A stretch of DNA of 64,000 bases. Origin: Amoebophrya sp. A120 (taxonomy: Eukaryota > Protista > Dinoflagellata). The stretch is taken from assembly GCA_905178155.1 (NCBI GenBank), contig CAJINV010000004.1, positions 4,520,518 to 4,584,517 of the forward strand. Reading direction: 5' to 3'. Shown one piece after another: positions 547 through 63,368 of this stretch (the first letter of the stretch is position 1; every line of letters starts with the position of its first letter). The translations under genes and the position numbers were made by a program. The notes beneath the pieces are model-generated. The model did not search any database, was not told the origin of the DNA, and worked only from the letters and a program-made list of their open reading frames with translations.

Positions 547-3500
547 ATGACGGTAAAGAAAATGGTTGCGCAGCACGCTACTATAGGACCACGGAAGCGA
601 ACTACGGTCGGACGCCACACCACAGTAGTTAATACCCGGGGAAGTAGAGAGCATCTGGGTCAACACGAGGACAACACGATGAAAAAAGAGCAACAAAAAC
701 AATTCGAGCACGACGATCAGCCAGGCTCAGGCAGCCCGGCGGCCTCGCAGCTGTCGTCCTGCAGTGCGATCGTTACAGGCATATTCGTTGACGGCACGCC
801 GGTGCGAGATTTGTCCCGGATCGGTTTTCGTGCTGCGTCGAGCGACAGGGCAGCTTTTACAAACAAGTCACGACCCGGTACGTCGACGTCTACTTCCGCC
901 GTCAAAGGCGGTTTTCGAAGTAAATGGGCCCAAATTTTGGAGGTCATCGAGAACGAGGAAGTTGTGAATTGGGGCAAAAATAACGAAGCCCCACCCTCCG
1001 ACCTCCACGATGGAACGTCAAGTTTTTGCAGTACGGAGCAGGCCGAGTTGACCTTCGACAATTCGGAGGTTTCGTTTTACTTTGAAATCGGGATTCTCAC
1101 TCCTCCTGAAGGCTGCGACTTCATCGCGGCGGCACACGACCAGGAGGCATCAAACGGTAGTCATTTTTCAGGGTCGGCGCAGAAAGGTTCCAGTTTCAGT
1201 TTTACTCCGACGCGCCCAGCAATTGCGACCCCCTTCGGCTCCTTGGAGGTTCGACTGGATCGCGCGAGCGACCATGCGTTTCACTTGCTGAAACTGAGAA
1301 GCGGAGTGGAGCTCTTCGATGACCCGCGAGGAGGTCATCTCCCCACGACATCATCCACCGAGGAGTCGTCCTCTTCTTTTGCAGCTTTTCTTCCTCCTGA
1401 ATTGCGCAACGTTTTTCACGACAGAGACCTTGAGGTCGAAATGCTGATTTCGGTGAACAAAGCATCTCCGAAGACAACTTCACTAGATCCACGTGCAGCT
1501 CCGGCTCCCGAGCATGACAGCTTGGTGGATGCTGAGGCGCTGCTTCGCTTCGAAGCTTACCAACAGTACGTTGCGAACAGTTTACAGCTCTGTGAAGCAG
1601 GAGGCGGAGCATCACTAGACCACGGAGCAGCTTCTTCACACCATCACGACTCCGCCTTGTGGTCAACGTCGACCACGCCACCCTCGATGAGAAATTTCTT
1701 CCTCGTGCAAAAAGAACCCTTCGAGCGCATCATTGCGTTGCTGAAACAGAAAGAACAACTTCTCTTCACGAAACTCAAAGAATCGGAGCTGGAGCTGGCC
1801 ATGCGGGCGGCGGGCCAGGAAAAGAAGATGGAGGCATTGCTGAAAAGGTTTTCGGATCTGCTGCGAAACCACTCCTTCGGCACGCCCAGTGGCAGTGCCA
1901 ATGGGTCTCCCGTGGAACAACAACAGATACTGGATATTCTTGCCAAAGACGCCCTGCAACAAAGTAGTACTAGAACAGACTCGACACTAAACGGCGACGG
2001 TCAAGAGCATCGAACTGCTGGTGTTGACAGCTGTGCTGTGCAAGCCGTCAAGAAGAGCCAGAATCTGTTGACAAGCGATACCGATAGCAAGATCCGGCAG
2101 CGGCAAGTGTCGGACACAGATTGGAAAATCGCTTGGAACCAGCTGTTTCTTACCGCGGCTTTGCAAGGGAAAAGGGTTGCGCTGGAGGACGTATAGATTT
2201 AGATATAGATTTGTTTCCGTAAACGTAATAAAGTTCTTTGCTGAAATGCAAAATTGGTGCTGCACCTGCACCAGATCCGGCACCTGTGAATGATCTTCTT
2301 GCTTGCTATGCTTGTTCATCTCGTCTCCATGGCGGGGTACTTACCTGTTGTAAGTAGCAGTGGTGACCATTACCGCACCTGGAAAAATTATCCCATCGAC
2401 TTTTAATTTCTATCAGGCCGATTTCACCGCCCGCCATGCTGCGTGGATGCGCTCCCGAATTGCCACGGAGCGCCAGCGACTGCTCGCGCGGCACAAAGCG
2501 CGGCTGGTGGAGAACGAGGAGCAGATCAGGGTGTTGTCCAGGCGAATCAGCGAGGCCGAAGCTGCGGGAGCTGCCGCGGAGGGTACTAGTAGTACAACGA
2601 CCCAGCACGACGACGTGTTTATTGCGGGCAACAAGGAGGAAAGCATAAGCAATGAATTTGTTGACAATGTGTCGACTTTGGAGGCTGTCTTGCAGCGGTT
2701 AAATGAAGAATTCACGAAAAACGAGAAGCGGTTGGAGCTCGGCATGGTGGAGAATCAAGGACTCTGTTCGGAGGAGGAAAAATGGAAAACACAATTGCAA
2801 TATTAAATGTAAAAATGTCTGGGTCTGGAAGAATGCAACTTGTCATGCTAGATCTGAAGCATGCAAAAATCTGTGTTGCATGATTACCAAAAGTCGTCCA
2901 GTTTTGACCAAGTCGGGAGGGAGTTTGTCATGTAGGATAGGCATGAGAGAGATCGCACAGAATCTGTCATGTTAGGTCCTACATTCCAGGCTTCATTGGT
3001 CATGGGAAAGCTGCATGACAAATCGCGCATTCTTCCAGACCAAGACACTTTTACACTCGATATGCAAGAAGCACAGAAGTTGCGGAAGTCGAAGGAGGAG
3101 GAATGGGAGGCACTGATGCATGTTGGGGCTACTGATGGTAAAAATCAACGAGATGGTGTAGTTGGTACAACTCTGCTTGACACGACAGGGACTACACCTC
3201 AACCTCATATCAACCTCCCGCCAATCTCTGTCCAACTCTGCAAGAACCTGAAAGAACACACCAAGCATCTGCAGGAAGAACGAAAGCAGCAAGACGGAAT
3301 TCTGGCTAAGATTGAAGACGCTGAAACATCTCTGCGGACGGAGCTTGCAAGGGTGAAAAGAAATAGCCTAGACGGTGAAAAACGTGCAGAAGGTGCGCGT
3401 CGCTCGGTGGAGCGGATGGAGAGATTAAAAGGTCTAGCTGCAACGTTGGAAGCGGAAAACGCACGGCTTAGTGAAGTCGTTGGGGAAAAGGTAATGCAAC

Positions 3501-15347: not shown

Positions 15348-18322
15348 ATGTTCGATGTCGTACATGGCTACGACGGGTTGAAATCGAAACTCGACCAAAT
15401 CATCGCAGAAACTACGTCGAACGGTGTATGCAAGAAAAAAACTGTGTAAGTGTAAATCTGTGATGCGGAAAATGCAAAACAGTTACACTTGTCATGCTCG
15501 ACATGCATGATCGGCTCGTTTCCTATGTGTTTTCCCTTCCTATCTGCGCATAACAAGTTTTCCCTGTCATTGCAGACAAACTTGTGATGCTGTTTTCCCA
15601 AAAGACTTACACTAACACATTTTTTTTCTTGGATACGGTGGATCAACCCCCGATGATGAAGCTAAAGCACTTCTACAAGAACGACAACCAGCTTTATTCA
15701 ACAGGAGCATCGTCGTGTGTCTTGACGAGGGAAAGCATTGGCTAGGGGCGCATTTATTCTACAGAAACAATCTTGCTGCCGGCGAGAAGAACAGGAGGAC
15801 CAGCACTGCTGATATTTTTACGACTGCAAATGTTGCGACTCCTGCAGTTGATTCAACATCATCATCGTCATCCACGGGTGGACGAGCGTCGTCGAGTCAG
15901 CAACCACGCTTGCAAGTCTTACTCTTTGACACACTAGAATTGGACATCGAGAGCCTGTGGATCTCCCAGCTGCTATCATCGCCCGAACGAGGTCGAGGAG
16001 GTGGAACTACATGGCAAAGCAAGAAGAATGCATGCTACGATCTTTTCCTGCTCGGGCCGATCTGCGATTATCGTCAGATAAGGAGTAGCTGTCAAGGTGC
16101 GGTGTCTGGCACGACGTCGACCAGCAGTACTAGCAGCGGAACAAGTTCATCATTCAAAAAACTCTACTACGACCGGCACCGCGGATTACCGCACCGCAAG
16201 ATGATCGCGCAACCCACACTGCAGAGCCAGCGGGACGGCACCTGCTTGGCCAGATGTTTGGCAGTCTTGCTCTGGCTGCGCTTTGTTCAGCAGATGAATA
16301 GTGATGTTGATGACAAAGACAATGGGACCTCTCGAAGTACTTCGCCGCGCTATCAGAATTATCTTCAAACCGCCTTCGACCTCGAGACGAAGCTTTTGCA
16401 AAGAGGCAGAACCTTTATCGCCCCAGAACTTAGTTCGCAAAGGAATCCAGACGCTTTTCGCCCGAAGCAGGAGGACAAGTGTGGGAACCAACAGGTTGTC
16501 AACATGACCACAGACGCCAGTGAACAGTTGATCGAGCACGAGCACGAGTTTTACCCGCTACGTACCTTGTTTTCCACCGGAGAGCGAGACACCTTCGGAA
16601 GAAGGTTCTATACGCACACAACTGCAGCTATGATTCCTGCAGCAGGGGCGGGTGAAGAACAGAATGATCGTGCCAAAAATGGGTTATTCGGCCACGTTGA
16701 AGATGGGAAGAAAAATGGAATAAGTGCAGAAATTCTTGCCGGTAAAAAGCAGAAACCGAACCCTGACATTGCTTCAAAACCGCCTGAAAGTAGTTCTTCC
16801 GCCGGATCCGGAACAAAAACTCGTCCTGCGGCGGCCTCATTTGACCCCCCCGACCGGTTACTTCAGGAGTACGTTGTTGCGAATGCTAAACTCGCAGCTA
16901 TCCGGGAACGCTTTTCGTTTTCCTCATCATCATCCCGCGAGAGTGTTGTAGTTGAGGGCGAAATTGTTCTAAACGCGTCCTCGCGGCCCCGTTCGTCGCA
17001 TCAGTTCCATAGACCCGCCTCCGCCTGGCGACTGGCCGAGGATTTAGGGGGGGACCATGTGAAGCGATGGCAGTTTCTGGAGGAGGTTTGCTTTTGGTTC
17101 GGCAACTACAACTATCAGGTGATAAAGAAATCGGGCTATGCTGTGCGGGAAGTGTTACAGGACCATGCAATGGAGCAAGAGGACAGGACAACGACAACTG
17201 CGAGCGGAGTTGCTGAAGCTACATTCTCAAACAACATCAAAAGCCCGCGCGGCGATCAACATTCTCTGCCACCTGTTTTGCTCCACCCAGCGAGTACGAA
17301 GATTCGAAAGTTCAGGCACCGCAAGACTGGCTTGATCACACACGAGGCAGACCCGACCTTTTTCGAGCCGCTGGAGGCGTGCATCGAGTTTCTCTGCTGC
17401 ACCACAGCTACAACTACCGAAGAGGAGAAGGAAGAGGGGCGGCATGAAGAGCAGCCCCTTGCACAAGATGAAGTAGCAACAACAGTATTAAATCACCCAC
17501 AGAAGTTCACAGTTTGCCCTTTTCCGAAAGTTTTCGAATCCCTGTGTCTGGCCGATATGCTTGCGCTACAAGAATCGCTAGGTGAATGTAGTACAGATCA
17601 TTCCGCGGGTCGCAGTAATTTCTCCGGTGGGGCGGGTCCTCGTGCAAGTAAAGATCATGATTCTGCGACGAGTTCTTGTCCTTTGCATGGACCACGAGAT
17701 CATGAACCAGAATCGCAGGAGATGAAGACAGCCTCTATCATCGACCTGATAGAAAGGATTGAAGTCGACAAGAGCCACAGACGTGTCTTTGTCTCGGACT
17801 ATGCACTGGACGGGAGCTTTCTGAATGATCCGGAACGCGACATTGATCTGCAAACGGAACTCCGCATGCCCGTTCTGTTGAAGCGGTAGGTGGGACAAGT
17901 AATGACTGAAACTTCTGCAGCTCCGGTGGGGGGGCCACGTGCAAACGATACTAGCCAGGCTCGATGAGGATGAGATTGAGAAACAATTGCGTTTCATCCG
18001 GGTCACGTACGTGTGTCGTTCTTAGCAGCGCTTTGCACGTGAAATAATGTTGACAAGGCAGCACTTGCCTTTCACGATCAATGACAAGGCAACGTTTTTC
18101 ACGACTGCAGACAAGCAGCATTTGTTTTTCGTTTTTTTTTTGTGTGTCAGCAATCAAGATCATCGTGAAGATCTAGACCATCTTCAGGATGGACGATCGC
18201 GGCTAGGACGAACGAAAGCAGTTGTATTGCAGCAACAAGATAAATCAACATACCTGCTTCATATTTTATTACGCTTTGGCCTTCGCTTGTTTGATACTAC
18301 GGATCGCCAGCTGCAAATATGA
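15348..18322 (+). CDS. Hypothetical protein, possible clan CE (Ulp1/adenain-like) cysteine protease
   Basis: ATG at 15348. Removing 15427-15640 gives ...TTSNG|GSTPDD...IVVCLDEGKHWLG in frame with ORF 15715. HW, FD and Q..C motifs occur in CE-clan order. Two GT-AG introns after 17886 lead to a stop at 18322. Confidence 0.55.
15427..15635. mobile_element. Introner family K (TIR TATGCAAGAAAAAAACTGTGTAAGTGTAA)
   Basis: TSD CGGTG at 15422-15426 and 15636-15640; frame restored. Confidence 0.88.
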
Positions 18323-28595: not shown

Positions 28596-29773
28596 TATGA
28601 GATTGATAGAGTACTCATTTCAAAAATATTCATAGTGCAAAAAAAAAATTTTTTTCACCGAAAATTGCACTGCGTTAGTTGATGCACCTTTTGCGTGATC
28701 AATTTGCTGCATTTTGTCTATGTATTTCAAATAGAATAGCCAGGAACGTACTGAGATTAAGCTACTTTATCGCTATGCTAAAGTATTGGGCTTTCGTATC
28801 TTCTTCCAGCTAGTTAGTTAAGAAATACTATCAAAGAACCTCCAAAAAAGATCATCGATTGTGGGAGAGATCGAAGAACTAGCGAAGATCCTTTAGATAT
28901 AGTAGCAGCTGCAGCAGCTGCTGTCCTCCGGTAGCCGCCCTTCCGGAAACGACCGCCGGGCCTGGAGAGCTGCTACTCCGTCGCGATGTAGCTGCGTGGA
29001 TTCGCCCGAATCCGCACGCCTACATCGCGACGGAGTAGGAGCTCTCCAGGCCCGACGGTCGTTTGCGTAGATCGGCAGGAGAGCAGCAGCAGCTGCTGCA
29101 GCTAATTACTAATTACAGGAGGATCCTCGAGCGTCTTGGCTCACTCACTCAGCCGATGATCTTTTTGCCATGTACTTCTTTAGTATTTCTTAAGTAGCTA
29201 GCTGGAAGAAGATATCAAAGCCCAATGCTATAGCATAGCTCTTAAGTCGCGTAATCTAAGTACGTTCCTGGCTATCTAGTTTGAATTACATGGATACAAC
29301 TGCTGGCCAGATCGTAAATCCAAGTGACCTAGTGACGGCCAGCATTGCAAACACGACGCAAATCAGGACGCAAATCAGGCCTGATGTCAAATCCCTCGAG
29401 CTTGTTAGGCTCTTGATCTGAATGCCAACCGATCCACCTCCTTAGCCGTAGCCATGCCATCTGTCACGCATGTTGTCCATCCTCGCCTTCATCTTGTGTC
29501 TCAAATCACCCCTGACAGGGTGCGGCTAGTGCCCCTACTAGTGCGTCGATATCAGAACGCAAACCTATAGTGACACGTAGTCACTTAGTGCTGCTAGTAC
29601 TGTTTTCCATCGTGTTTACGTCTGTAGGTTTGTCGTGCGTCTAGGTTTCTAACAACAATGCGCCAACTTGTTCATGCAGAAGACGCCTCGCCTCCTATGG
29701 CGCAACTTTCGGTGAAAAATGTTTTTTTTTGCACTATGAATATGTTTGAAGTGAATACTTTATCAATCTCATA
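28596..29773. mobile_element. 1178-bp non-autonomous TIR/foldback element with introner-type ends
   Basis: About 70-bp imperfect TIR (TATGAGATTGATA...TATCAATCTCATA), TSD AGAGT, internal inverted repeat about 28720-29290. Confidence 0.9.
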
Positions 29774-29827
29774 AGAGTTACTGGCTGTAGTAGGGGCTAC
29801 GGGTCAATTTGTTTCTACGCGTGGTTC

Positions 29828-32235: not shown

Positions 32236-32542
32236 TATGGAAGCGTCAGGATTGAAATCGTCAAAGCTGAAATGGTTTGTGATGCATAAAATGCTAGACG
32301 CAAAGTGCCTGTCTTGCAGAGCAGGCAACTGAGGCCGATTATAAGCCTGTTTGGGGTGTGAGATAGAGCTGCTAAAATAGCATGACAAAAGCAGTCTTCT
32401 CTGCTCAAACAGCATGACAAATTGGATTTCCATGCTGCCAAAATTTGTCATGCGCCACTTGTAGACTGGGCTCCAGCTGGTATCGCTTTTTTGCATTACA
32501 GATTATTTCAACTTTGACGATTTCGATCCTGACACTCCCATA
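32236..32542. mobile_element. Family D element (TIR TATGGAAGCGTCAGGATTGAAATCGTCAAAG), apparently intergenic
   Basis: TIRs match copies at 40455 and 56663; flanked by a roughly 75-bp direct repeat instead of a 5-bp TSD. Confidence 0.88.
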
Positions 32543-45344: not shown

Positions 45345-45517
45345 TAAAGTTCTTGAACTCTTGCCGCGAGGACGGCAACCGTGGACGACCGTGGCTGGCG
45401 GGATCCGATCGTGGATCGATCTGCGCGGAGGACGACCCCAGTTGTAGCTACTCGATCGATCATCTGCGCGGACGATCCCAGTTGTAGCTACTAGCTCGCT
45501 GTGAAGAGCGAGGTCGT

Positions 45518-48500
45518 TTGTCGTGCAGGAACATGGCTGGTCTGGTCGCACCAGAGAATAGACAAGGATCAAGAAGTAGTAAAAACACGAAAGGGAAGGC
45601 TCGTCCTGGCAACGACGCTGCTCCTTTTGAAATGCGTCCTCTACAGCTTCCAGGGGCCTGCGTAAACCTGCGTTGTACAGGAGCGGGACCGCCGGCGCAA
45701 CAGCAACAGCCGTCCCTTGAATCGCTTCTGCACCGTCACAACGAGAAAATCAGCCGAGCGCTGGGCCTCCGCGGCCAGTGTTGCGTGGGGCTTTGCGGCC
45801 TGTATTGCGTGCAATTTTTTCAAGGCTGTGGGGTTGGTCTTCAAGCGGTGGAGCGGCACTTTGAACAGCTTGCACGAATTGCGGAAAAGCTGACGGGAGA
45901 TCATCTTCAAGATGAGAACGAAAAGTCCGCTGAAGAAGACAGGAACTACTCTGATGTTGACGAGCAGAGTGAGGGTCGTGAAGAGGACGAAAGCGAAAGC
46001 GAGAGCGCCCCTACGCCATCTGTCGGTGTGGGAAACAGTGCTTCTTCATCGTCTGCGGGGGGTGCTACAACTCGGCGGGTGACGCAGCATTGTGGGCGGG
46101 GCATTACGCCCAGCTGCACGCCCGAAGACGACGATGACGTCCCGTGGTTCTTGCCTTTGAAGAGCAACAGCAAGACGAGACTACAGAAGCAAATAAAGGT
46201 GTGTGCTTCTTCTTCACAGGCAGCTGCAGCTGGTGGAGCAACTACATCTGCTTCGTCAAGAATTAAGTTGTCCTCGGGCCACGCCGGGAACTTCAAGCAA
46301 GGTCGTTGTTCGGCACAGGCAAGCCCTTCACGACTGCCTCAATTTGAAGATGTCCTCGAGAACAATAACAAATCGCACAAGAAGAACGGAATAAAAAATC
46401 CCTACCACAACCTGACTGTCAGCGAGCAATCAAGTGTCGACGTCGTTCTGGTCCTGCAGCGGCTGCAGTTTTTTCACCTGGGTGTGCGGAAGTTCTTCGC
46501 CATTGCAAGCCCGCCCGGAAGAAAGCTGTTTATCGACGCCACGCTGGGGCGAGGACCAGGCGCGGCTGCTAGTCTTTCTGCTGCGATAAAGGGAGTAGGC
46601 GACGATGGCTTCGTATCAGAAAAGAACCACCGTCGCAAAGATGTTGAACCCAAAAACCGGCGGCGCAGCCTGGCGGAGCGTCTGCAGGAGGAGTTGGAGA
46701 TGACGTCGCCAGGATCTTCCACCTCTGGGGACGACGACGAAAGTCAAAACACAGCGACCTTGCTGGGCTGTCGCGCCGCTCATGCCTATGCGAGTTCGAC
46801 GACACAAGCCGTGAAGCTGCAAGGCAATACGGCTGCCAGGCAGCACAACCTGGCGGGCCGTTCATCGGTAGGACCTACAAGTCGGAGTCGTTCCTTTTCC
46901 GATCATATGGGAGCTCCGACCGTGGTCTCTGCCGGGAGTAATAAGTCCCAGTCCCGCCACTGCAGTTCCATGTCGCCGATGAAAACAAGGAACATGATTC
47001 TGTCGTCCACGTCTAGAGCTGCGTCGCTGCACCACGACAGAAAAAAGGAACAACCGGACGACGCAAGCGGCCAAACGACAAACAAACGCGCTATGTGTGC
47101 GTTTGAAGCACTGGATTGCGGCTTCGATGCTCTGTGGGTCGACCTTTTTAGGAATGACGAGAAACACGCGGCGGCCCACGAAGAACAAACGGCGAAAACA
47201 AGAAGTTTCTCCGTCGACGCAAGCACCGCGGGACACGTTGTGCGCTTGCACACGGTGAGGACCTCGAACGCGAGTTCTACGACGACCGGCAAGAACAACT
47301 TAAACTCCCGTGTAGTTGGCGAGCAGTTTTATTCCGTTGGACGCGAGGAGGAACGAGCTGAGCTTGCTGCTTGTTTTCGGGCAGTGCTGGACGTTTTTAC
47401 GGGACAGTTAAAACTACCACTACACAGAGATCGTGGTCTTGCAAAGACGAGCTCCGACGACGACCACCTCCGCAAAACATCACCTTCCACAGCGAGTACT
47501 ACGAGTGGTCTTTTTTGGTTCGCCCGTGTCAGCTTCTACCGCTACAGCCAGAAGGGGGACATGATCGGCGCGCATCAAATGTGTTTGTCGTTGGCAACAA
47601 GAGGTAGAAAAGCGTCCACCTCGGCAAGTGGTCCAGGAGTAGATCTGGAAGCAGTAGACGTGGTCTTTTACGACCCGAACCGTGCGCCGCGAGTGGTCTG
47701 TTTGGATGAACAAGCGCCGCTTGTTCATCCAAACAGACCACTCGGTGGACAAAAACAGCAAGAAGCTGCATCGCGGGCACAGCTTGAGAATCACTTCCTC
47801 CAGTTTTTTGTCGATACGAGCGTTTCACAGAAGCGGCTGCAAAACACGAAGAGTCTGGTGTTCTCGCTCAGTGTGTGGCGGAGCAGAAGTAGTTGTACAG
47901 CTGCTTCTGGTTGTGATGGATCAAGCTCCGCAAATGACCAACTCTTGACGAAGTTCGCCAGCATCCGGAGGCGATATCAAATGCAAAAACGTCTGGGTCT
48001 GAAAACTTGTGATGCTGGTTGGCGAATTCTGAGACTGAGGACGCCTCAAGTGACGGCTCAGCATGGCAAGTTTCTGACTTGCTAGGTGTTGGTGTTGCGT
48101 ACACGTACTCTGCATGACAAACCGCGTCTCGACATGACAGAAAAGCGGGGCTTTTGGGTAACGAGCATGACAGACTTTGGGGTCATGCTAGCAGAGCATG
48201 ACAGACCTTCCATTCTTCCAGGCCCAGGCATTTTCGCAATCCATAGGCGAACACCCCTCGCAACTCTTTTCCGCGATCAAGCGGTGACCGAGCGGCTGTT
48301 TCGGGTCATCGGGGGAAATTTTTCGACGCAAGATGAAGGAGGTCGGCAGATGAAGACGATGGATGTAAAAACAACTACCGGCTCTTGTACTTCTAGTAAT
48401 GCAGCAAGAAGAACTTGTTCTTCTTATCAGAATGAAAAATGCCCCCACCCCCGAACTTGAAAGCATTTGTATTGCAAACCTTTCCAAATGAAACATTCGC

Positions 48501-49522
48501 CCTCTTGCATGTATCAGCATTACAGGTTTCCAATCGTGAATAGCAGAAATTTGTATTGCAAAAGACCCCAGCAAGAGCGGCGCTTGTCATGCAAGCGATG
48601 CGATACACGCCTAGACTCTGCATCAGAAAGATTCGCACTCCTTTCACGCATGACAAAAAGTTTTCATTTGGAAACTTAGCATCACAAATTTTTGCAATTT
48701 CAGGGGTGGGGGGCACTTTTCACTGCAATACTTCTACATGTTGCCCCCACACCGACGATTTTTTCGAACACCTACTACAAAAAGAGCATATCCTGTGGAA
48801 AAGTATCTATCGCACTCGTATTGCAGTCATGCCTTACAAATTCGTTTCTTAAGGTATATCCGTATTACAAATTTTATTTTGCATGCTGAGGAAATTTGTA
48901 ATGCCTTTATACAAGTGCGAAGATACTTTAGCAATGCATGGAGCACCCGGGCCTACCTGGCTACCGGCGGTTGCTGGATCGCGCACTGAAATCGTTGGTG
49001 AGCAGTTTGTACTTTCACTTGTCCCTGCCGAAAAACTGGATCTACAATAAAGCCCTGCAGTCGGTGAAGGGCACTTTTGACGACTACGAGGACTTCGCTT
49101 CCTACGTGCGGGAGTTTGCGAAGTCGACAAATTATAACTCGTGCGCGGAATTATTCGTAGACCATCAATTATCGGGAACTACATCCACCTCTTCGACGAC
49201 GTCTCTTCTCGCGTCCGACGTGGTTTCATCTCTTGCGGAAAATAAGTCTGCAAGAGTTCTTACCTCCTATGGGGCTTTATTTCGGGATAGCTCCCGTGCG
49301 AGGAAAATTCTGGTCGAAGCGAACCCGGAGAGATGTGGCGTTTTCTTCTTTGACGAACCGTTGGCAGTCATCAAGCGTGCAGCAGGTGGCGGTGGAACAA
49401 TAAACGGAGGAAAACTTCTAAATCACTGTGGGACTTCCACGCGGCGAACCAGCGGCAGTGCCGTAACATCTGCGCGACCGAGCCTCGTGGAAATTTTACA
49501 GGCGTATTACAACGCCACTTAA
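45518..49522 (+). CDS. Hypothetical protein, possible papain-fold (C58-like) C-H-D protease; 3 introners
   Basis: Removing elements at 47975, 48425 and 48789 joins SIRRR|TPLAT...TCSS|TCCPH...QKE|HPGLP. Motifs GQCCVGL, GAHQMC, FYDPN. Confidence 0.6.
47975..48245. mobile_element. Introner family A
   Basis: TSD GGCGA; GC-AG reading possible. Confidence 0.9.
48425..48730. mobile_element. Introner family C
   Basis: TSD CTTCT. Confidence 0.9.
48789..48940. mobile_element. Introner family B
   Basis: TSD GAGCA; right terminus reads CATG. Confidence 0.88.
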
Positions 49523-55062: not shown

Positions 55063-58000
55063 ATGATGGGCGGGACGAGCGAAGATAATTCTACCAGCGC
55101 GATCATGGACCTGATGCTAGGCACAACGACCGGCGATGAAATTATAAATCAACACGACCCAGCACCTCATGGTAGTCCAGAGCTAACCTTCAATCATGCC
55201 ACCGGCCAGATGGTGATGACTACAACGGCGCCCCCTGGTGCTGGTCCACCTGCTCCCGCGCTGGCCGCCGTCGTGCCCAGTGGAGTAGGAGGGGTCGCAA
55301 CCACTATTACAGGTGATCAGGAACTACAATGCTCAACACAAAATCACAATGCGACTGCGACTTCGCGAGGTGACCGTACTCCGGTGACCTTTGAAGAATT
55401 GATGAACGTGCAAAGCGACGACCCTCTTCTTGGGGGTCAGACTGCTTCCGGACAAGGTTCTTCAGGCTCTTTCGCTCCTTTTAATAATCCCGTTTCGTCG
55501 AACAGCGGGGCCGCAGTAGATAATAATTCCATGAATGCTGGTGACATGGAACTGGTCACTTGGGCCCTGCAGCAAAATGTTCCGGAGGTGGATAATCGAC
55601 ATCAGCAGCCATTTGTTGCTACTAATATCCACTGGAACAACCACATCAACAACCAAGGGCCCCCGCAGCTGCTGATGCACCAGATGGGTCAACACCAAAA
55701 CCAACAATATCTACACGTCGCAACTACTAATAGTAGTGCCCCGTGTAGTACTACGACATCTAGAGGCGCCGGGGCAGGACCACAACTACATGGGCAGCAC
55801 AACAACCCGCACATCATGATGAACAACTATCGATTACCTTTCGACGCGACTGTCGCAGGGAGTGGAGGGGGAACGCCTGTTCTCGACGGGGGCTTCTTCG
55901 GGGGCGGCACCACTACGTATGCATTGCAAAAGGATCGTTCGTGCTAGTATAAATTGCATCACAAAAAATTCCAGCAAGAACAGAAGTGAAATTTGTAATG
56001 CTGTTTCAGGTTTAGAAAGAGATTTGTCATGCATGAATGCAATTTATACGAGTGCGATACTTTTGCACAGGATACTACGCCTCAGATGTTGATGAACAAC
56101 GGGGGCGGTTCTTTGTTTAACCACAATGCTTATCACAGCAAAAAGTGTTAACGTTAACGGAATTTGTGATGCAGCAATGCATCACAAAACATGCCAAAAT
56201 TTGTAATGCATAGCACGCATATTGGGCTACATTTGTGATGCATGACTGCAATTTGTGAAAACCGTTACCGTTAACACTTTTCCTTGTGATAATGCTGTTA
56301 ACATGAACATCAACCCGACCACAGCAAGAACCGCTAACACTCCCAGAGGCGGCATTGGTTGCGCCGGTGCTCCTATCAAATGTAAAAATGTCTGGGTCTG
56401 GAAGGATCCGAACTTGTGATGCGCATTTTCGAACACAGAAAAATCTCTCATGCATAGGTAGCAAAAGGTGCTCAATTCTGTCACCAAAGTGGGGGGTTTC
56501 TCATGCGGGTTCGGCATTGCGGAGGCTTCTCGAAACCTGTGATGCTAGAGCTTCCATGCCAGACCTTCTGTGTCATGCAAAAACAGCATGAATCTTCCAG
56601 ACCCAGACATTTTTACATTTGATAGCTCCGACGCCGACCGCTGCGCAGCTGAACGGCGGAGCTATGGAAGCGTCAGAATCGAAATTGGCAAAATCGAAAA
56701 ATTTGTGATGCACAAAATCGATGTCAGTTGGAGACTCAGTTTCCAAATGGCGCATGACAAATTTCGGGAGTACCCAAATCCAGTCTGTGATGCTGTTTGG
56801 ACAAAGAAGACTCCTCCTGCAGTGCCACTCTGGCAGCACATTGCATACCCCTAAACAGGCTTGCAATCGGCCTCATTTGCCTGCTCCCCAATACAGGCCT
56901 TCAGTGCCCTACATTTTACGCATCACAAATTTTTCGATTTTGTCGATTTCGATCCTGACACATCCATAGGAGCCTGCTCCCCTTTGGTGGATCCGTTCGC
57001 GCCGAGTTGGCTCGTGGGCACGCTTTTAGAAGAGGAGAAGCAGCTGAAGCCGGAAGATCAGAGCGAAAATAAAGACGGCGCTGCCGCTGCTGATTCTTCA
57101 TCTTCCGGAGGTGACAAAACGTCGGCTGTAGACAACTCTGGCACAACTACTACTTCCGGGGGGAAAAACAAAGAAAACAAGAAGCAACTCGACGAGCTTG
57201 TGGTAAAGGATGTCTCGACGCCGCTCGCCATTTCAGGAGCGACACCGTTCGGCGCCGGAGAAACGACTAAAACGCCGCGGGGTTTTACCAGCAACGCGAT
57301 GAACATAACGGGGGCGCAGCAGGCGCAAAATGGAGAACCAACATTGCGTATATGTTTAATATAAACTGATGATTCTTTTGCTTGGAATTTCGCATTGACT
57401 TCTATCTTGAGCTAGCAGTCTCGAATTCTGATTTGCTCCTCGTAAAATTTAGATTTATGTATCATGACAGCTTTGCCGTCAACAAACGGCTCCTCCACTG
57501 GTACTACCCATGTTGCGGCGGCCAACGCAGCCGGCGTGAGCTCGACCGGTGCGAATCAGATTTTCAATGTGGTAGACCCGTCCCCGATGAACAAAAATAA
57601 CGGCGAGCAGAGCTGCATGAGCGGCGACCAGAGTAACCCATTCTTGCAATTCAGTGGCGACGCGCTGGAGGCAGCGATTGACGAAGCGGTGGGGCAGTGG
57701 AAGTTTGACGACCCAACTCCTTTGAACGACGGAGGAGGAGGGGGTTCCGTAAGTTGTAGAAGAGATCATGCGGCGAGGACTTGTTACAATGATCTTCACA
57801 ACAACAATTTTTATAGGGCCGGCGCGGGCCCGTCCCGTGGCAAAAGCAAAATGAATAACAACAGCTTTCATTATCATGGGAGCAGAGGTGGGTCCTCGCG
57901 CGGAGGTGGTGGAGGTGGTAATTACTACGATCAGTACCACAAGATATGAACTGCAAAAGTATCGTACTCGTATAAATGCATTACAAATTTCCTCAGCATG

Positions 58001-61000
58001 AGAAATCAAATTTGTAATGCGGGTTGACCTTAAGAAAAAGATTTGTATTGCATGATTGCAATACGAGTACGATACTTTTGCACAGGATACAAGAACAGTA
58101 AAAACAACTTTCACGACCAACAGAACCACCTATCAAATGCAAAAATGTCTGGGTCTGGAAAGTTGTGATGCTAGTGTCCGAATGATACGCAACCTGTATT
58201 AGGGGACCGCGCATCACAAGTTTCTGAGCGGCTATGTCCAGCGTGAGCCGCATGACAAATGGCCTGTTTGCATGACAAACAAGTGGCACTGTAGCGCGCC
58301 AAGCATGACAGACTTTTCTGTCTTGTCAACCAAGCATGACAGACTTGCATTCTTGTTCCACACCCAGACATATTTGCAGTGGATACCAACGCAATAAGTA
58401 CAACGACCAGCAAATAAATCTTCACCCCGTGGTCTATCCTGTGCAAAAGTATCGTACTCGTACAAATGCAAGTCTTGCATTACAAATCTCTTTCTTGAGG
58501 CAAATCCGCATGACAAATTTTATTTCTCATGCTGAGGGAATTTGTAATGCATTTATACGAATACGATACTTTTGCAGTTCATATGGTCCGGCGAGGCGCG
58601 ACGCCAACCATGGAGGTTCGGTACACAAACGGGCCGAGTACTAATCTCCTTGCCAGTGGCGGAGGTGCAGGAGCTCCTGGTGGAAACAAGGCAGCCGGGG
58701 TGATGAATGGAGGCAAAAATTATAGTAACTCGTTTTACAACGGCGCGAACGGAGGTCAACCGGAGAATGGTGCTGGACCACACGGAGTTGCCAATTCATC
58801 TCAACAAGGCACCACTACTGCGGGAGATTCTACTTCTTGCACAGCGGCCTACTACACTGGTGTTCAACAAGGAGGCGCTACAGCAGGAGCAGGTCCAGCT
58901 GTTGGTACCAGTATAAAGGGGAGCAAGATGAGTCCCCACTATGCGCCTCAGGGCAGCCCGGGGAAGAGCGGCTCTTTCCTGTTGAGCAGTTGTAGTACAA
59001 ATAAAGCTGCTGGTCAACTGGACGAGGGGGAAGGTGGTGCCACCGGCGCTGGTGCACCAGCTGAATCATCTTCCGTGGTCACAACAACAACTTCGACGAG
59101 TCAGTATGTGAAGGACCGTTTTTTCATGCAACGAACGACCAGCAAGCCGGCGCCCAGTCCGAAGGGCAGCCCCAGCAGTCGTGTCATCATTCAGGAGGAC
59201 GGCACGCGCCGGGAGCGGGATCTCGTTCACGGCGGCACGGTGAATTTAGCACCCATTCCGCCGATGGAAAAAGTCTTTTGCGCGGACACGCTCTTTCCAC
59301 AGCAAGCTATTGCTGGGGGTGGTGGTGGCGGGGCTCCTCTTGCGAACAACATCAATCATGGAGTCGCGGGGGGACCCGGACCTGAACAGCATCTGTCAGC
59401 GGCGGGAGGAGGTGTTACCGGAGGCACTACATCTGGTGCTACAACTTCAACTACAAGAACGACTACAACTTCCGAGGTGGATCACGAGATGCCGGCTCTG
59501 ACCTTGGACTCCGGTGGAAGTGTTGCGAACAGACCAGAAACACGAGATGCTGCCGACGAGCAAAAATCGCCGGAGCTGCTGCCAGGACGAGAGACCGCCA
59601 CCTACACTAAAGACGACATCGAAATGAGTCTCGCGGACACAGAGCCGTCCTCTCAGGGACCGAATTCCGCCGCCGTGCGGCCGGTAGATGCAGCATTTAA
59701 AAATGTGATACCGGCGGCAGTTGTGCAAGAACAACACCAGAATGATACTAGTACCGGCACGACCAACGTCAACAACATCGGGGGGCAACATCAAACGCAA
59801 TCAATTCTCTCCACACCCGAAATCAAGGAAGATTCTGCGCCGGCAGCCGCAGCTGTGACAGAAAATAAGAATGAAGAAAGTGCCACGACGAAGTCGTTGG
59901 AGGAGACGGCCGCGGCTAAGATGAACTTTTCCAATGTGAAAAAGCGCGAGGCTGATCGTGATGAAGACCACGATGTAGGAGCTGCCCTCGCAGTTACTGT
60001 CGCGGAAGTTCCACAGGGGGACAAAAGCGAAAGGCTGCAAGAGAGATCGACGACGGCCAAGAAAGTGAAGTTGGATCTTCATGGTAGTCCTACTACGGGC
60101 GCCCAAGTAGAGCCGCTGAATGAACAAGGGGAAAACGACGAGAAGGGAAAGTCCAGCGGAGCGCAGGAGATCAACACGACGACGGCGAACATTTCCAAAC
60201 TTAACACGAAGGTCCACCTCGGTGTTGAGGATCCGGAAGCACTGCTGGCTGCACCTGAGGAGGAACGCAGCCACCTTGCTTCCACTAAAGAGCCGACTAC
60301 AAATCAGCTCTGTTCTACCAAAATGACGCGATTAGAAGTGGTCGACCTCACATGCACTAAAACCACCAATTGTAGTGAGACGAACAGCACTTCTAGTTCT
60401 CCCGTGGTGCTTGACGCCGCGAATAAAGACGAAGCCGAAGTACCAGATCGTGCGCTTTTGGCCGCGTCCTCTTGTACGACCACTGTCGTGATGCAAGGAC
60501 AGCAGGAGACCCGCCTCGCCCAGGATCAACAACAGCAGGAGCAGGAAGACCATCGGCATGCAAAAATCATCCCGGAGATGAAGATCCAGCACGAAGTTGG
60601 TAGGAGCACGTCACAACAAGTACTAGCGCCATCATCCGGTTGCTGTATCAAGAACGATAAATCTTCTGCAGGCGCCTCATCTGGTGAGAATGAGAACATG
60701 GTGCCTGAGGAACAAATGCTTCTGAAAACTGCTGCAAATGGCCAGACTGCTGCTCGTCCAGCCAATCTCCTGCCTCGACCACAGCGCAGAGGTGGGTATT
60801 TTTTCGGCGCAGAAAGGGATCACGTAGCGGTAGCGAAGGTTGAATACATTGACAGCAGCGCGGGAGGACGGGGTTTGTGTGACAAGGACAGTAGTGAAGA
60901 TTTGTTGAGTAGTAGTTCCTGCCAGGACAATAATCTAAATCTACTTTCTCCTGGTGAAGATGAAAATAAAAAACTCCTTCATCACGACGAAATTAAAGAC

Positions 61001-63368
61001 ACGATCGTCCTCGACCACGGGGCCCCCGATGGAAACAAGAACGGCGCAACGTCGCGTCGTGGCGACTACGTGTGGGTCACGTTCAAGAACGGGAATCAAG
61101 CCTGGTTCCGGGCACCTAAGTACATTCGCGGGGGAGAAATTATCACCCAACTGAAATCTCCTGTGCTGAAACCAGTGGCTGTTGATGTTAGTACTCGAGG
61201 TCCTCTCGACGGGCGGGGACCGTTACAGCCGTTGGCCGCAGGGGACGAGGTGAAAGCAACTTGTTGTTCCATAATCGACAAGCAGGAGGAAGAACTGCCA
61301 GCGGTTGATATCACTCCAGCCCCGATCATCGCATCCAGCAACAGGGGTGTCTCTTCACTGCATCCAGAAGAGATTACAGGTGAGGTGGGAGCGTTTGTTA
61401 ACGTCAAGGGGTCCAGCACCTCGACTCCGAAGATCATCGATCCTCCCGAACATAATCTTCGAGATTCGCAGACAGACCAGAAAAACGGGAACCAACAAAA
61501 TACTAGTTTTAATATCCCAGCATTCCCATCCTCATCCAAGAAGAATTTGAATTATACCCGTTTTGATTCCCTTCCGCCACGGTTTTTCCGACTGAGCTGG
61601 GAAGAGTTTATTCGGGATCTACTAGACGGCTGGCTGGACGAGTACATAGTGCGAAACGCGTGCCAAGTAAAGGCGGACGCGGTGGTGGAAAACAAACTGC
61701 TGTTCGTGCGGGAGCAGGAAAAGCACATCGTCGGGGGAAACACGCTATGCAGTGCAAAAGTATCGCACTCGTATTGCAATCATGCATCACAAGTCTTTCG
61801 CTAAAAGGTAAATCAGCATTACAAATTTTATCTCTCACGCTGAGGAAATGCATTTATACGAGTGCGATACTTTTGCGATGCATACACGCCCGTGGCGTTG
61901 AGACAGGAGAATGAGAAGAAGTTGCAACATGTGCAGAAAGATCTGGACACCTGGTTTGCGGCGGAGCATGCGAAAAGAAAGGGCGTTGATGCTGTGTTGA
62001 ACAAAGGGGATGAAGAACATGAACACGACCAAAGCGGTAGTGCTGATGGGCGGGAAAGAACGAAGGAAATAATTCGGCTGAAGCACACCTGCTTTCCCAT
62101 CCCGCAGGTTGCCATAGCAATGATCATTGGGAATGAAGGTAAAAGCGTTATGTCTGCGGAGGTCGAATAGTAGAATTTACATTTTTTTAGAATGTTTGTC
62201 GTTCTTCGGCACCACCACCACGACATGCACAGTGGACGATTTCATCAATTTTTCGTCAATCCAGGTCGCACGGTGAACTGTTACGAGGAGAAGTCTGGGT
62301 GCTACATTGGCGTTCGGCACGAGAGCCTGTGCGGAAAGGCGTATGGCATTGTGGAGATTGTTGGGTTCGACGCGGAAATTATCTACGCCGTGGAAGAAGA
62401 CATTCACCAAATGGTGGACCGAGCGATAGAAATGTACTAAAGAGCCTTCACTTACTGTATTTAGCGCTGGTACTGCATCACTTGAATAGAGTACAACCTC
62501 TGGTGTCTTTCTGCGATTGCACGGTCCTGGAAGAGGATTATTGTGCATTATTTTCTCAAAGTAAGCTGCATTTCATCTCGCCTGCGCGTACCACTTATGC
62601 GTAATAATAGCGATGTGCTTGATCCTCGAAGATGAAATACATCACAGGAAAAGCAACCACCTTTTGACGGCTAACGACAACTTGACTCCGGCATCTCGCT
62701 TGCGGCAGGTGCAGGGAAATAGAATGAAGCGGACATCGAGCCAGAGGACTGCTTTTTTCGACAAGCGGAATACATCTGGTGAAGGCGATCGCGATCCTGA
62801 CGAGAAAAAGAATGCAAATACCGCTCCGGTAGAGGTGGACGAGATCGACCGGTTTGCCGGCACCAACGCTGGCGTGGCGCAGCAGCAGTGCATCCCGGAC
62901 AGTAGCCGCACGGGTAGTTGCAATATTCAATCTTCACCATGTGAAGATCATTCTGTGTCAGATGAAGCTGTTGACGGCTCCTCGCCGAGGTCCCCAGCGT
63001 CCAAGCGTGCCAAAAGCAACACCGGTCGCGCGGTGACTATGGTAGTTCAACGGAAAGAACCTACTTCTGACCAGAAAATTTCATCTGTGGCGACGTTGCA
63101 GAAAGAACAAGGCCTGGCGCTGCCCGATGTGCTGGATGAGCCTTGTTCATCAACATTTTCACGGCCGGGTACAACAACAGCCGGACCTGCTTCAAACGGA
63201 GCTGACAGCGAGGAGGTGGATGCTGCAACGGCGGTTGTACTTGCAAATTTGACTCAGGAGCAACGATCCACCAAGAAGATGAACTTGTGCCGAGATTATG
63301 ACGGCAGTAACGTGCCCAACAGGCAAGTTACCCAAAGGGTTACGGTTTTTTTTTTTCGGTGTAAATAA
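55063..63368 (+). CDS. Large low-complexity protein with a KH RNA-binding domain; 8 introners plus canonical introns
   Basis: Frame maintained through 8 element removals and GT-AG introns (57348-57470, about 62139-62264). KH signature FPIPQVAIAMIIGNEG|RTVNCYEEKSGCYI...VEIVG. The 3' end is uncertain. Confidence 0.75.
55918..56074. mobile_element. Introner family B
   Basis: TSD CTACG. Confidence 0.9.
56131..56291. mobile_element. Introner family G
   Basis: TSD ATGCT. Confidence 0.92.
56374..56624. mobile_element. Introner family A
   Basis: Perfect 31-bp TIR; TSD GCTCC. Confidence 0.95.
56663..56968. mobile_element. Introner family D
   Basis: TSD GGAGC. Confidence 0.93.
57945..58089. mobile_element. 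Introner family B
   Basis: TSD CAAGA. Confidence 0.93.
58131..58385. mobile_element. Introner family A
   Basis: TSD ccacc/ccaac. Confidence 0.87.
58435..58583. mobile_element. Introner family B (opposite orientation to 57945)
   Basis: TSD TGGTC. Confidence 0.93.
61746..61884. mobile_element. Introner family B
   Basis: TSD CACGC; removal joins GGNT|PVALRQ. Confidence 0.92.

What the first reader, a model, noticed from the sequence alone, without database searches (positions are those of the whole stretch)
2801..61884. One internal motif, GCATNACAAA / TTTGTNATGC, is shared by otherwise unrelated element families
Seen: families with different TIRs carry several copies of GCAT(G/C/T)ACAAA in both orientations. 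In many copies (A, C, D, E, F, G, I) a TTTGTNATGC-type copy lies about 30-45 nt inside the left end, often mirrored at the right end. Family B has the terminal pair reversed. The motif appears rare in exons. Inference: a common binding site for a transposase, chromatin protein or excision factor, i.e. a candidate cis-code replacing splice sites.
Basis: partly seen in the sequence, partly recalled or inferred. Interest (0 to 1): 0.85.

Follow-up and report, generated by a model that had tools for sequence, protein, structure and literature searches.

The report
Shared motif in transposon-like introns
A ten-letter DNA word, GCATBACAAA, occurs in this Amoebophrya-type sequence only inside transposon-like introns, at a set distance from their ends in at least nine otherwise unalike families, and is likely the docking site of the still unknown enzyme that spreads these introns through the genome.

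Summary
GCATNACAAA has 57 hits against 0.65 expected. All 57 lie in 31 elements that make up 14.8% of the window. Each element has TAT[CG]...[CG]ATA ends, terminal inverted repeats and a 5-bp target duplication. Ten in a row are missing exactly from RNA-type contigs, and nine of those ten lack GT..AG. They match the published non-canonical introner elements of Amoebophrya A120 (PMC7789003).

The first motif copy lies 30-49 nt from 46 of 62 ends, mirrored at the two ends. Further copies follow at about 32-nt steps. With the motif masked, the nine families share no detectable similarity.

In 117 elements from related contigs, changes shared by several copies are about 6- to 19-fold rarer at motif letters than at control sites. 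Private changes are only about 1.3- to 2.6-fold rarer. Selection therefore acts mainly on propagation.

Best reading (0.55): binding sites on double-stranded DNA for the unknown transposase. An RNA excision code is weaker (0.2), because neither strand form is present in every excised intron. The elements are known. The shared motif was not found in print.

The parts
2801..3062 (.). Family A element (TATCAAATGYAAAAATGTCTGGGTCTGGAA ends), 262 nt, TSD TGCAA, 2 motif cores
   Evidence: Removing it with its TSD keeps a + strand ORF open.
15427..15635 (.). Family I element (TATGCAAGAAAAAAAC), 209 nt, TSD CGGTG, 3 cores
21047..21311 (.). Family A element, 265 nt, TSD GGTGG, 2 cores; 93% identical to 2834-3062
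   Evidence: The ORF stays open for 1164 nt to the left and 3336 nt to the right after removal.
23044..23193 (.). Family B element (TATSNNGTGCAAAAGTATCG), 150 nt, 2 cores in the reversed (GCATBACA inward) form
32236..32542 (.). Family C element (TATGGAAGCGTCAGGATTGAAATCG), 307 nt, 5 cores, no TSD; flanked by 54-nt direct repeats
33984..34176 (+). Family G element (TATCACAGGAAAAAGT), 193 nt, 2 cores, both TGTVATGC on the sense strand; intron 33981-34178 (CT..TC)
   Evidence: RNA-type contigs join 33980|34179 in 4 runs.
34266..34558 (+). Family F element (TATCCTGATTAAAAAC), 293 nt, TSD TGCAG, 3 cores all GCATBACA on the sense strand; intron 34261-34558 (TG..TA)
34601..34915 (+). Family C element, 315 nt, 3 cores; intron 34597-34916 (AT..AT)
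34958..35295 (+). Family F element, 338 nt, 3 cores (GCATBACA form only); intron 34956-35298, the only GT..AG intron of the ten
   Evidence: An unspliced low-depth contig covers 34962-35328.
35329..35467 (+). Family B element, 139 nt, TSD ATTGG, 2 cores; intron 35324-35467 (AT..TA)
35508..35809 (+). Old, diverged family A element, 302 nt, TSD decayed, 4 cores; intron 35507-35813 (AT..AA)
35875..36110 (+). Family D element (TATGGCGTTCTCAAACGTTACATTCTC), 236 nt, 4 cores; intron 35871-36111 (TT..AC)
36197..36419 (+). Family E element (TATGACAGTGCACAACTCC), 223 nt, TSD CCGGG, 2 cores, first at 84 nt from each end; intron 36191-36418 (AC..AT)
36466..36615 (+). Family B element, 150 nt, TSD GTACC, 3 cores; intron 36460-36614 (CT..AC)
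36664..38980 (+). Family A element of 2317 nt with a nested 2-kb TIR insert (36779-38792), TSD AAGAA, 5 cores; removed whole as intron 36659-38980 (AA..TA)
   Evidence: No Pfam family in its 3 ORFs.
40455..40885 (.). Family C element, 431 nt, TSD CGCTC, 4 cores
41193..41422 (.). Family E element, 230 nt, 3 cores
41683..41944 (.). Family A element, 262 nt, TSD CAACG, left terminus TAG instead of TAT, 4 cores
42349..42599 (.). Family A element, 251 nt, TSD ACCCG, 3 cores
42650..42960 (.). Family H element (TATCAAAGTGAAAAAAGCCCCCACCCC), 311 nt, TSD AGGAG, 4 cores
47975..48245 (+). Family A element, 271 nt, TSD GGCGA, 4 cores; missing from an RNA-type contig
   Evidence: X4 contig joins 47968|48245.
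48425..48730 (+). Family H element (TATCAGAATGAAAAATGCCCCC), 306 nt, TSD CTTCT, 4 cores; missing from an RNA-type contig
   Evidence: The X4 contig stops at 48419, carries 53 further letters and resumes at 48941. The 53 letters equal one TSD (5) plus the exon 48736-48783 (48). The end was corrected from 48733 to 48730.
48789..48940 (+). Family B element, 152 nt, TSD GAGCA, right terminus ATG instead of ATA, 1 strict core
55918..56074 (.). Family B element, 157 nt, TSD CTACG, 3 cores
56131..56291 (.). Family G element, 161 nt, TSD ATGCT, 4 cores
56374..56624 (.). Family A element, 251 nt, TSD GCTCC, 3 cores
56663..56968 (.). Family C element, 306 nt, TSD GGAGC, 4 cores
57945..58089 (.). Family B element, 145 nt, TSD CAAGA, 2 cores
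58131..58385 (.). Family A element, 255 nt, 6 cores
58435..58583 (.). Family B element, 149 nt, TSD TGGTC, 3 cores; inverted relative to 57945-58089
61746..61884 (.). Family B element, 139 nt, TSD CACGC, 2 cores

Best explanation
GCATBACARR(T) is a repeated, positioned cis-element of one superfamily of TIR elements (TAT[CG] ends, 5-bp target duplication) that are cut out of the mRNA as mostly non-canonical introns, and it is likely the double-stranded-DNA binding site of the still unidentified transposase, or an accessory protein, that mobilises all these families.

Shown here:
- The motif is confined to the elements.
- Its first copy sits 30-49 nt from most ends, in mirror orientation at the two ends.
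- Further copies follow at about 31-35 nt.
- It is the only block shared by nine families.
- Its fixed letters are constrained, chiefly among variants that were propagated to several copies.

Inferred:
- A protein multimer would bind the arrays on both arms and bring the ends together.
- It would cut at the TAT termini and integrate with a 5-bp stagger.
- The inverted repeats between terminus and motif would be free to differ between families as long as the two arms pair. That pairing would give the RNA hairpin proposed by Farhat et al. for removal from the transcript.
For: 1. Confinement and enrichment. 57 of 57 ten-mers and 99 of 103 cores lie in 31 elements. This compares with 0.65 expected in the window and 2.1 cores in within-element shuffles. 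In 364 kb of unique sequence from related contigs the density is 12.7 cores per kb inside strictly detected elements and 1.6 per kb outside. Of the 486 outside cores, 392 sit in clusters of 2 or more.

2. Transposon anatomy. The finder gave 26 TIR+TSD elements against 0-2 in 10 shuffles, and 254 against 4 in the related contigs. The 5-bp TSD is perfect in 221 of 276 elements, with no target preference. Lengths are not multiples of three, and removing element plus TSD restores long + strand ORFs.

3. Position and symmetry. The first core lies at 30-49 nt at 46 of 62 ends. Among 276 elements a core lies at 25-60 nt from both ends in 153, from one end in 95 and from neither in 28. The forms are mirrored: T/T 118, G/G 21, mixed 14.

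4. Spacing. 23 of 68 adjacent core pairs are 31-35 nt apart and 11 are 45-50 nt apart. A step of 31-32 nt is about three turns of B-DNA.

5. Only shared block. There are 0 cross-family blastn HSPs with the motif masked and 12 short ones unmasked. TIR consensus positions 5-30 are on average 39% identical between end clusters.

6. Where selection acts. In 117 elements sampled without regard to their own motif state, the rates per site class are:

| Site class | Shared variants | Private variants |
|---|---|---|
| Subterminal motif | 0.55% | 1.9% |
| Internal motif | 1.2% | 2.7% |
| Middle letter N | 10.7% | 3.5% |
| Flank | 8.5% | 4.3% |
| Other | 7.2% | 4.8% |

The shared:private ratio is 29:75 at motif letters against 1054:655 at controls (odds ratio 0.24, p = 2e-11).

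7. Strand symmetry. Copies sit in both orientations in + strand genes: A 3/5, B 4/4, C 2/2. Excised introns exist with only one strand form of the motif. The middle letters of the two subterminal copies are independent, equal in 50 of 139 against 0.38 expected, so the conservation is not stem pairing.

8. Literature. A120 families of 250-260, 305 and 149 bp are classed 'TIR DNA, superfamily unknown' in supplementary file 8 of PMC12130899, of which I saw 19 of 58 A120 rows.
Against: - No transposase or integrase was found. There were 0 such Pfam families in 22 window ORFs and in 61 of the 121 ORFs of 220 aa or more from the related contigs. Farhat et al. report no transposase in A120 (passages).
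- Private changes are also somewhat rarer at motif letters: odds ratio 0.38-0.43 for subterminal copies and 0.56-0.64 for internal ones. This could mean some constraint at inserted copies, that is, a role in the transcript. It could also come from sparse sampling, which makes propagated variants look private.
- The related contigs were fetched with a pattern that contains family A's repeat plus the motif. I corrected for this only by keeping elements that have another pattern hit in the same locus.
- No binding or mobility experiment exists.
- The distance from terminus to first copy varies from 31 to 49 nt between families, which is loose for a fixed protein-DNA complex.
Confidence: 0.55

Rival explanations
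1. The motif would be an RNA-level excision signal. A dedicated factor, protein or guide RNA, would bind GCAUBACAAA/UUUGUVAUGC in the pre-mRNA, next to the hairpin made by the inverted repeats, and direct removal of the element plus one copy of the target duplication. It would stand in for 5' and 3' splice sites in an organism reported to lack U1 snRNA.
For: - Every one of the 10 consecutive RNA-verified introns carries at least 2 cores, and 9 of the 10 lack GT..AG.
- Private changes at the subterminal copies are rarer than at controls: 1.9% against 3.5-4.8%, odds ratio about 0.4.
- Motif letters are more often paired than other internal letters in predicted RNA folds (0.78 against 0.60).
- Farhat et al. 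report no U1 snRNA and an unknown splicing mechanism (passages).
Against: - Propagated variants are depleted far more than private ones (odds ratio 0.24 for shared against private). An in-place splicing requirement should hit both alike.
- Internal copies take private changes at nearly the control rate in the tighter clusters: 3.3% against 2.9-3.8%.
- Neither strand form is in all excised introns. 33984-34176 has 0 GCATBACA and 34958-35295 has 0 TGTVATGC on the sense strand, with one mismatch allowed.
- Both insertion orientations occur.
- The distance to the cut site varies from 31 to 49 nt.
- The middle letters of the two arms do not co-vary.
- No snRNA lies in the window, so complementarity could not be tested.
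Confidence: 0.2
2. The motif would be a binding site for a host chromatin or silencing factor that marks the elements, for example for repression or for co-transcriptional handling, rather than for the mobilising enzyme.
For: It behaves as a duplex, orientation-free site repeated at regular steps and confined to the elements.
Against: A host mark gives no reason why lineages that propagate keep every copy so strictly while inserted copies decay. It also does not explain the mirrored position near both termini. No candidate protein is known.
Confidence: 0.08
3. The motif would be a relic. All families would descend from one element whose interior was a tandem array of about 32-nt units, and the motif would simply be the part that has not yet decayed.
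For: Copies follow at about 31-35 nt like a tandem array. All families share TAT[CG] ends and the 5-bp duplication, so common descent is likely.
Against: The middle letter inside the motif and the 5 nt beside it vary at the control rate, while the seven fixed letters do not. Nothing else aligns between families. Neutral decay cannot give this contrast.
Confidence: 0.04

Closest known systems
Non-canonical introner elements (IEs) of Amoebophrya sp. A120 (Farhat et al. 2021, PMC7789003; abstract, passages and section 11 read)
   Same: - Introns without GT..AG that are absent from RNA.
- Inverted repeats at both ends that start with TAT, then about seven variable letters, then a run of A.
- Short direct repeats across the boundaries.
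- Many repeated families.
- About 17% of the genome there, 14.8% of this window.
   Different: The paper describes only the terminal inverted and direct repeats. No shared internal motif is mentioned in the text I read, and the motif strings are absent from its one held supplementary file. It gives direct repeats of 3-5 nt; here the target duplication is 5 bp (perfect in 221 of 276). It treats the families as unrelated (1954 families); here at least nine share termini, duplication length and motif. Identity of the window to the A120 assembly itself could not be tested.
Subterminal repeat arrays of plant TIR transposons: Ac/Ds (hAT) AAACGG hexamers and En/Spm (CACTA) 12-bp TnpA sites (recalled, no call)
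   Same: A short motif repeated several times in both orientations inside both ends of the element, separate from the terminal inverted repeat, and shared by autonomous and non-autonomous members.
   Different: Those families have 8-bp and 3-bp duplications and other termini (recalled). Here the duplication is 5 bp, the ends are TAT[CG], the elements sit in coding exons and are removed from RNA, and no autonomous partner is known.
Drosophila P element: internal 10-bp transposase site some tens of bp inside each 31-bp inverted repeat, at unequal distances at the two ends (recalled, no call)
   Same: A 10-bp site inside, not within, the terminal repeat at roughly 40-50 bp from the ends. Distances at the two ends are unequal: here only 11 of 153 elements have equal distances, and the commonest offsets are 1-2 or 8-9 nt.
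   Different: The P element has an 8-bp duplication, one site per end rather than an array, and no relation to these sequences.
A120 'family 38' TIR elements with integrase-like ORFs (Gozashti et al. 2025, PMC12130899; passages and part of supplementary file 8 read)
   Same: Same organism type. TIR-flanked introners classed 'TIR DNA, unknown superfamily'. A 5-bp duplication is what retroviral-type integrases usually make (recalled).
   Different: No such ORF lies in the window or in the fetched contigs. Whether family 38 carries TAT[CG] ends or the motif could not be checked, because no sequences are in the held supplements.

Membership tests
Amoebophrya A120-type introner elements (Farhat 2021) | Removed from RNA with non-canonical boundaries | tested here: met
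   10 joints in RNA-type contigs of 3-4 runs, 9 of 10 not GT..AG. DNA contigs of run X1 keep the elements at 32688-34290 and 34887-35350.
Amoebophrya A120-type introner elements (Farhat 2021) | Inverted repeat at both ends starting TAT, about seven variable letters, then at least three A | tested here: met
   TAT starts 60 of 62 ends. The two exceptions are TAG and, read inward, CAT. The A run at positions 11-15 is present in families A, B, F, G, H and I but not in C, D and E.
Amoebophrya A120-type introner elements (Farhat 2021) | Direct repeat of 3-5 nt across the boundaries | tested here: met
   5-bp duplication, perfect in 221 of 276 elements. Joint ambiguity is 1-6 nt.
Amoebophrya A120-type introner elements (Farhat 2021) | Sequence belongs to the A120 assembly | not testable with these tools
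   No genome is held for the window and the assembly is not in a searchable collection.
Non-autonomous TIR DNA transposon with subterminal binding-site arrays | Terminal inverted repeats and a target duplication of fixed length | tested here: met
Non-autonomous TIR DNA transposon with subterminal binding-site arrays | Short motif repeated in both orientations inside both ends, conserved beyond its surroundings | tested here: met
Non-autonomous TIR DNA transposon with subterminal binding-site arrays | Copies at many unrelated sites with different duplications (mobility) | tested here: met
   254 unique elements with distinct flanks. Clusters of up to 19 copies at 86% identity or more.
Non-autonomous TIR DNA transposon with subterminal binding-site arrays | Autonomous partner whose transposase binds the motif | tested here: inconclusive
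   None among 22 + 61 ORFs scanned, but only 64 kb + 417 kb were available. Binding is not testable here.
Transib / RAG-like transposons | 5-bp duplication | tested here: met
Transib / RAG-like transposons | Termini beginning CAC (heptamer-like), as recalled | tested here: not met
   Termini are TAT[CG].
hAT and CACTA superfamilies | 8-bp (hAT) or 3-bp (CACTA) duplication and CACTA termini, as recalled | tested here: not met
   5-bp duplication and TAT[CG] ends.
Strand-specific splicing signal (splice-site or branch-site type) | Present in the sense strand of every intron in one orientation at a set place | tested here: not met
   Both orientations occur. Of 13 RNA-verified introns, one has only the TGTVATGC form and one only the GCATBACA form, with one mismatch allowed.

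The most novel reading that the evidence does not exclude
The motif is the address label of a spliceosome-independent, or U1-independent, excision machine. A protein descended from the elements' own transposase would recognise GCATBACAAA next to the hairpin in the transcript and cut out element plus one target duplication. The same word would then serve both spread in DNA and removal from RNA, a true cis-code in place of splice sites.
Probability: 0.15. Interest if true: 0.9.

Novelty: new variant of a known kind. Interest (0 to 1): 0.6.

Why it matters
The non-canonical introners of Amoebophrya make up about a sixth of the genome and two thirds of its odd introns. Neither the enzyme that spreads them nor the way they leave the RNA is known (PMC7789003, PMC12130899). 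A ten-letter word shared by families that look unrelated has three uses:

- It collapses many 'families' into one superfamily defined by TAT[CG] ends, a 5-bp duplication and the motif arrays.
- It gives a concrete bait for finding the protein, by pull-down, one-hybrid or DAP-seq.
- It gives a sequence handle for finding the autonomous element in the full assembly.

The contrast between propagated and private changes is a test that can be repeated genome-wide to separate a role in spread from a role in splicing.

Tried and rejected
- No genome is held for the window. The records behind the fetched contigs could not be searched by handle. I took no further step on either.
- RNA runs: no listed holder is on record as RNA. 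Runs X4-X7 are RNA only by the tool's guess. I treat them as RNA because intergenic bins have no cover and low-depth unspliced contigs sit beside the joined ones. Raw RNA runs X9 and X10 under the same species label laid only 47 and 2 reads, all partial, so they said nothing.
- In one search the DNA run X1 flooded the joint table with repeat joints. I repeated the lay on a smaller stretch without it.
- Rfam: 0 families in the window, so complementarity of the motif to the organism's snRNAs could not be tested.
- Long candidate elements in the fetched contigs (9 of 450 nt or more) were mostly false pairings of ends of different elements. None had a transposase-sized ORF with matching ends.
- G.U against A.C mismatches in the terminal stems, a test for an RNA hairpin on the sense strand, gave 110 against 83 (p = 0.06) in the 77 of 276 elements with a strand call, and 36 against 42 in the window alone. 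This is inconclusive.
- The first end clustering (7 or fewer mismatches in 28) merged families A and B and was replaced.
- At 90% identity or more the clusters were too small to test (22 elements).
- Earlier findings of this scan: nothing for this genome or for the sequence. Three unchecked notes on other genomes describe similar hairpin-bounded introns and did not change my reading.
- Print searches. The four ten-mers occur in 544 papers; the 15 listed are unrelated. 'Amoebophrya' with GCATGACA gives one paper, where it is part of a primer. With TGTCATGC it gives none. 'Introner' with 'subterminal' gives two unrelated papers. The strings are absent from the one held supplement of PMC7789003 and from 12 of the 14 files of PMC12130899; files 13 and 14 were not searched. 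The figures of both papers, and Roy et al. 2023, were not seen.

Full report
**What the window is.**
- Long open frames lie almost all on the + strand.
- The sequence holds many short elements with terminal inverted repeats.
- A finder asked for TAT...ATA termini, at least 12 of 16 matching arm letters and at least 4 of 5 matching flanking letters. It gave 26 elements against 0-2 in ten shuffles.
- With six more added by eye and checked, and one 1178-nt element without the motif set aside, I count 31 elements of about 9.5 kb, 14.8% of the window.
- These features fit what Farhat et al. 2021 describe for Amoebophrya sp. A120 (PMC7789003; abstract, passages and section 11 read): repeats starting TAT followed by a run of A, short direct repeats at the boundaries, many families and about a sixth of the DNA.
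- Identity to that assembly could not be tested.

**The elements are introns.**
- Contigs of four runs that behave like RNA-seq join eleven exons between 33003 and 39377 and skip ten elements in a row. In these runs intergenic bins have no cover, and low-depth unspliced contigs sit beside the joined ones.
- The skipped stretches end CT..TC, TG..TA, AT..AT, GT..AG, AT..TA, AT..AA, TT..AC, AC..AT, CT..AC and AA..TA.
- Each joint falls within the target duplication, so element plus one duplicate is removed. The exons between them are as short as 25 nt.
- A DNA run keeps the elements at two of these places.
- Another contig skips 47969-48244. Between 48419 and 48941 it carries 53 letters, which is exactly one duplicate plus the 48-nt exon between two further elements.
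- Removing all 31 elements with 5 nt each leaves long + strand frames across nearly all junctions. Element lengths are spread over all three residues modulo three.

**The motif is real and confined.**
- GCATNACAAA has 57 hits against 0.65 expected. The middle letter is never A, and GCATGACA is the commonest 8-mer of the window.
- All 57 hits and 99 of 103 cores (GCATBACA) lie in the elements. The four outside are what chance gives.
- Shuffling the elements themselves gives 2.1 cores and 0.28 ten-mers.
- The fuller word, from 884 copies, is GCATBACA, then R, R, T, with a weak T run after it. The middle letter is G 481, C 265, T 138 and A 8.

**Position and symmetry.**
- At 46 of 62 ends the first core starts 30-49 nt from the terminus. 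Read inward, 33 are TGTVATGC and 13 are GCATBACA; the latter are mostly family B.
- Of 68 adjacent core pairs, 23 lie 31-35 nt apart and 11 lie 45-50 nt apart.
- Family alignments show islands of conservation that coincide with the repeats and with five or six motif copies. The spacers between them differ freely.

**More copies.**
- A scan of metagenome contigs with family A's repeat plus the core found 162 stretches, all on contigs named JACKZZ01.... Their elements are 75-94% identical to the window's, and the flanks do not match.
- The 417.5 kb hold 254 unique TIR+TSD elements against 4 in shuffles.
- Eleven end clusters have three or more members. Ends with a strict core at 25-57 nt number 241 of 273 (A), 50 of 67 (B, all in the reversed form), 14 of 20 (C), 13 of 14 (D), 11 of 16 (I) and only 30 of 82 (H).
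- Among 276 elements a core lies at 25-60 nt from both ends in 153, from one end in 95 and from neither in 28. The forms are mirrored in 139 of the 153.

**Are the families one diverged family?**
- With the motif masked, blastn at word size 7 finds no cross-family match among 30 window elements of nine families, while matches within families stay plentiful. Unmasked, it finds 12 short cross-family matches centred on motif copies.
- The families do share TAT[CG] ends, the 5-bp duplication and often an A run. They are therefore best seen as one superfamily whose only conserved internal block is the motif.

**Where selection acts.** I clustered elements into subfamilies, took the majority letter per column and counted departures from it by site class. 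Only elements that have another pattern hit in the same locus were counted, so an element's own motif state did not decide its inclusion. With clusters at 80% identity or more this left 117 elements:

| Site class | Shared by 2+ copies | Private to one copy |
|---|---|---|
| Subterminal motif letters | 0.55% | 1.9% |
| Internal motif letters | 1.2% | 2.7% |
| Middle letter N | 10.7% | 3.5% |
| 5-nt flank | 8.5% | 4.3% |
| Other positions | 7.2% | 4.8% |

- The shared:private ratio is 29:75 at motif letters against 1054:655 at controls (odds ratio 0.24, p = 2e-11). This comparison does not depend on mutation rate.
- The terminal 30 nt show no such deficit (odds ratio 0.94).
- In tighter clusters (86% or more, 46 elements), internal copies take private changes at the control rate: 3.3% against 2.9-3.8%.
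- Lineages that went on to make new copies therefore kept the motif, while copies already in place let it decay much more freely. This points to a role in spread.
- The remaining deficit of private changes, clearest at the subterminal copies, may reflect sparse sampling or a second role in place. I cannot tell which.

**Strand symmetry.**
- Copies of families A, B and C lie in both orientations in + strand genes: 9 forward and 11 reversed of 20.
- Of 13 RNA-verified introns, one has only TGTVATGC and one only GCATBACA on the sense strand, with one mismatch allowed.
- The middle letters of the two subterminal copies agree no more often than chance, 50 of 139 against 0.38 expected. The two copies sit at equal distance from their ends in only 11 of 153 elements.
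- Conservation is therefore not a by-product of stem pairing, and a single-stranded, one-orientation RNA signal does not fit.
- In predicted RNA folds motif letters are more often paired, 0.78 against 0.60. This is what inverted copies give in any single strand.

**Most likely mechanism.** The motif arrays are binding sites on duplex DNA for the transposase or a helper protein of this superfamily. This step is inferred; no protein is known. Binding on both arms at about three-turn steps would bring the TAT ends together for cutting, and insertion would make the 5-bp duplication. The letters between terminus and motif differ between families but pair within each element. That fits a separate need for an RNA hairpin in removal, as Farhat et al. 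proposed; my G.U test of it was inconclusive. No transposase was found in 22 + 61 ORFs. PMC12130899 reports integrase-like ORFs between inverted repeats in one A120 family, and classes families of the sizes seen here as 'TIR DNA, unknown' (passages and 19 of 58 supplement rows).

**Novelty.** The elements are known. I found no mention of a shared internal motif in the texts and supplements I could search. Figures, two supplement files and one subscription paper were not seen.

Noticed in passing
window 28596-29773: A 1178-nt element with 60-nt inverted repeats (TATGAGATTGATAGAG...), a perfect 5-bp duplication AGAGT and no motif core. Its interior is a nest of long palindromes (28736-29275, 28772-29239, 28947-29064). 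It has the same kind of ends and duplication as the introners but is a different class. Whether it is an intron is unknown.
   Followed up: partly
window 36779-38792: A 2014-nt insert with 41-nt inverted repeats (GAAACCGAAACCTCGTG...) nested inside a family A element. It contains palindromes of 58 and 76 nt per arm (37611-37939, 37696-37849). Its three ORFs of 156-230 aa hit no Pfam family. The whole 2.3 kb leaves the RNA as one intron.
   Followed up: partly
window 34956-35298: One of the ten consecutive element-introns has canonical GT..AG ends, formed from the last two letters of the left duplicate and the first three of the right one. The same element type can therefore be a canonical or a non-canonical intron.
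   Followed up: partly
window 33980-36658: In the four introns whose two target duplicates differ by one letter, the mRNA keeps the letter of the left (5') duplicate each time. The mismatches lie at duplicate positions 1, 1, 2 and 3. The 5' cut therefore lies downstream of that letter, within or at the element-side end of the left duplicate.
   Followed up: partly
window 57945-58583: Two family B elements in opposite orientation flank a family A element, leaving putative micro-exons of 41 and 49 nt. Together they read as a 109-nt-armed inverted repeat.
   Followed up: no
window 32183-32620: The family C element at 32236-32542 has no target duplication and sits between two 54-nt direct repeats (96% identical), upstream of the first RNA-covered exon. 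It may lie outside a coding region or inside a small duplication.
   Followed up: no
window 50012-52289 and 51181-51330: A 30-nt inverted-repeat pair 2.3 kb apart (TTCAAAACGAATTCAAACCG...) encloses a tandem array of 30-nt units (GAAATTG...TTTGAA...CGTTTT). There are no motif cores and no Pfam hit in its ORFs.
   Followed up: no
window 9738-10074 and 8042-8173: In-frame tandem coding repeats: three perfect 81-nt units plus a diverged fourth, and two 66-nt units rich in Gly/Asn codons.
   Followed up: no
loci L014, L022, L073, L045 (contigs JACKZZ01...): Host genes interrupted by the same elements include a DNA ligase/DRMBL protein, an SNF2 helicase, a TRIP4/ASCH protein and a KIN17-like protein. 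These contigs are therefore eukaryotic DNA filed among metagenome records.
   Followed up: partly
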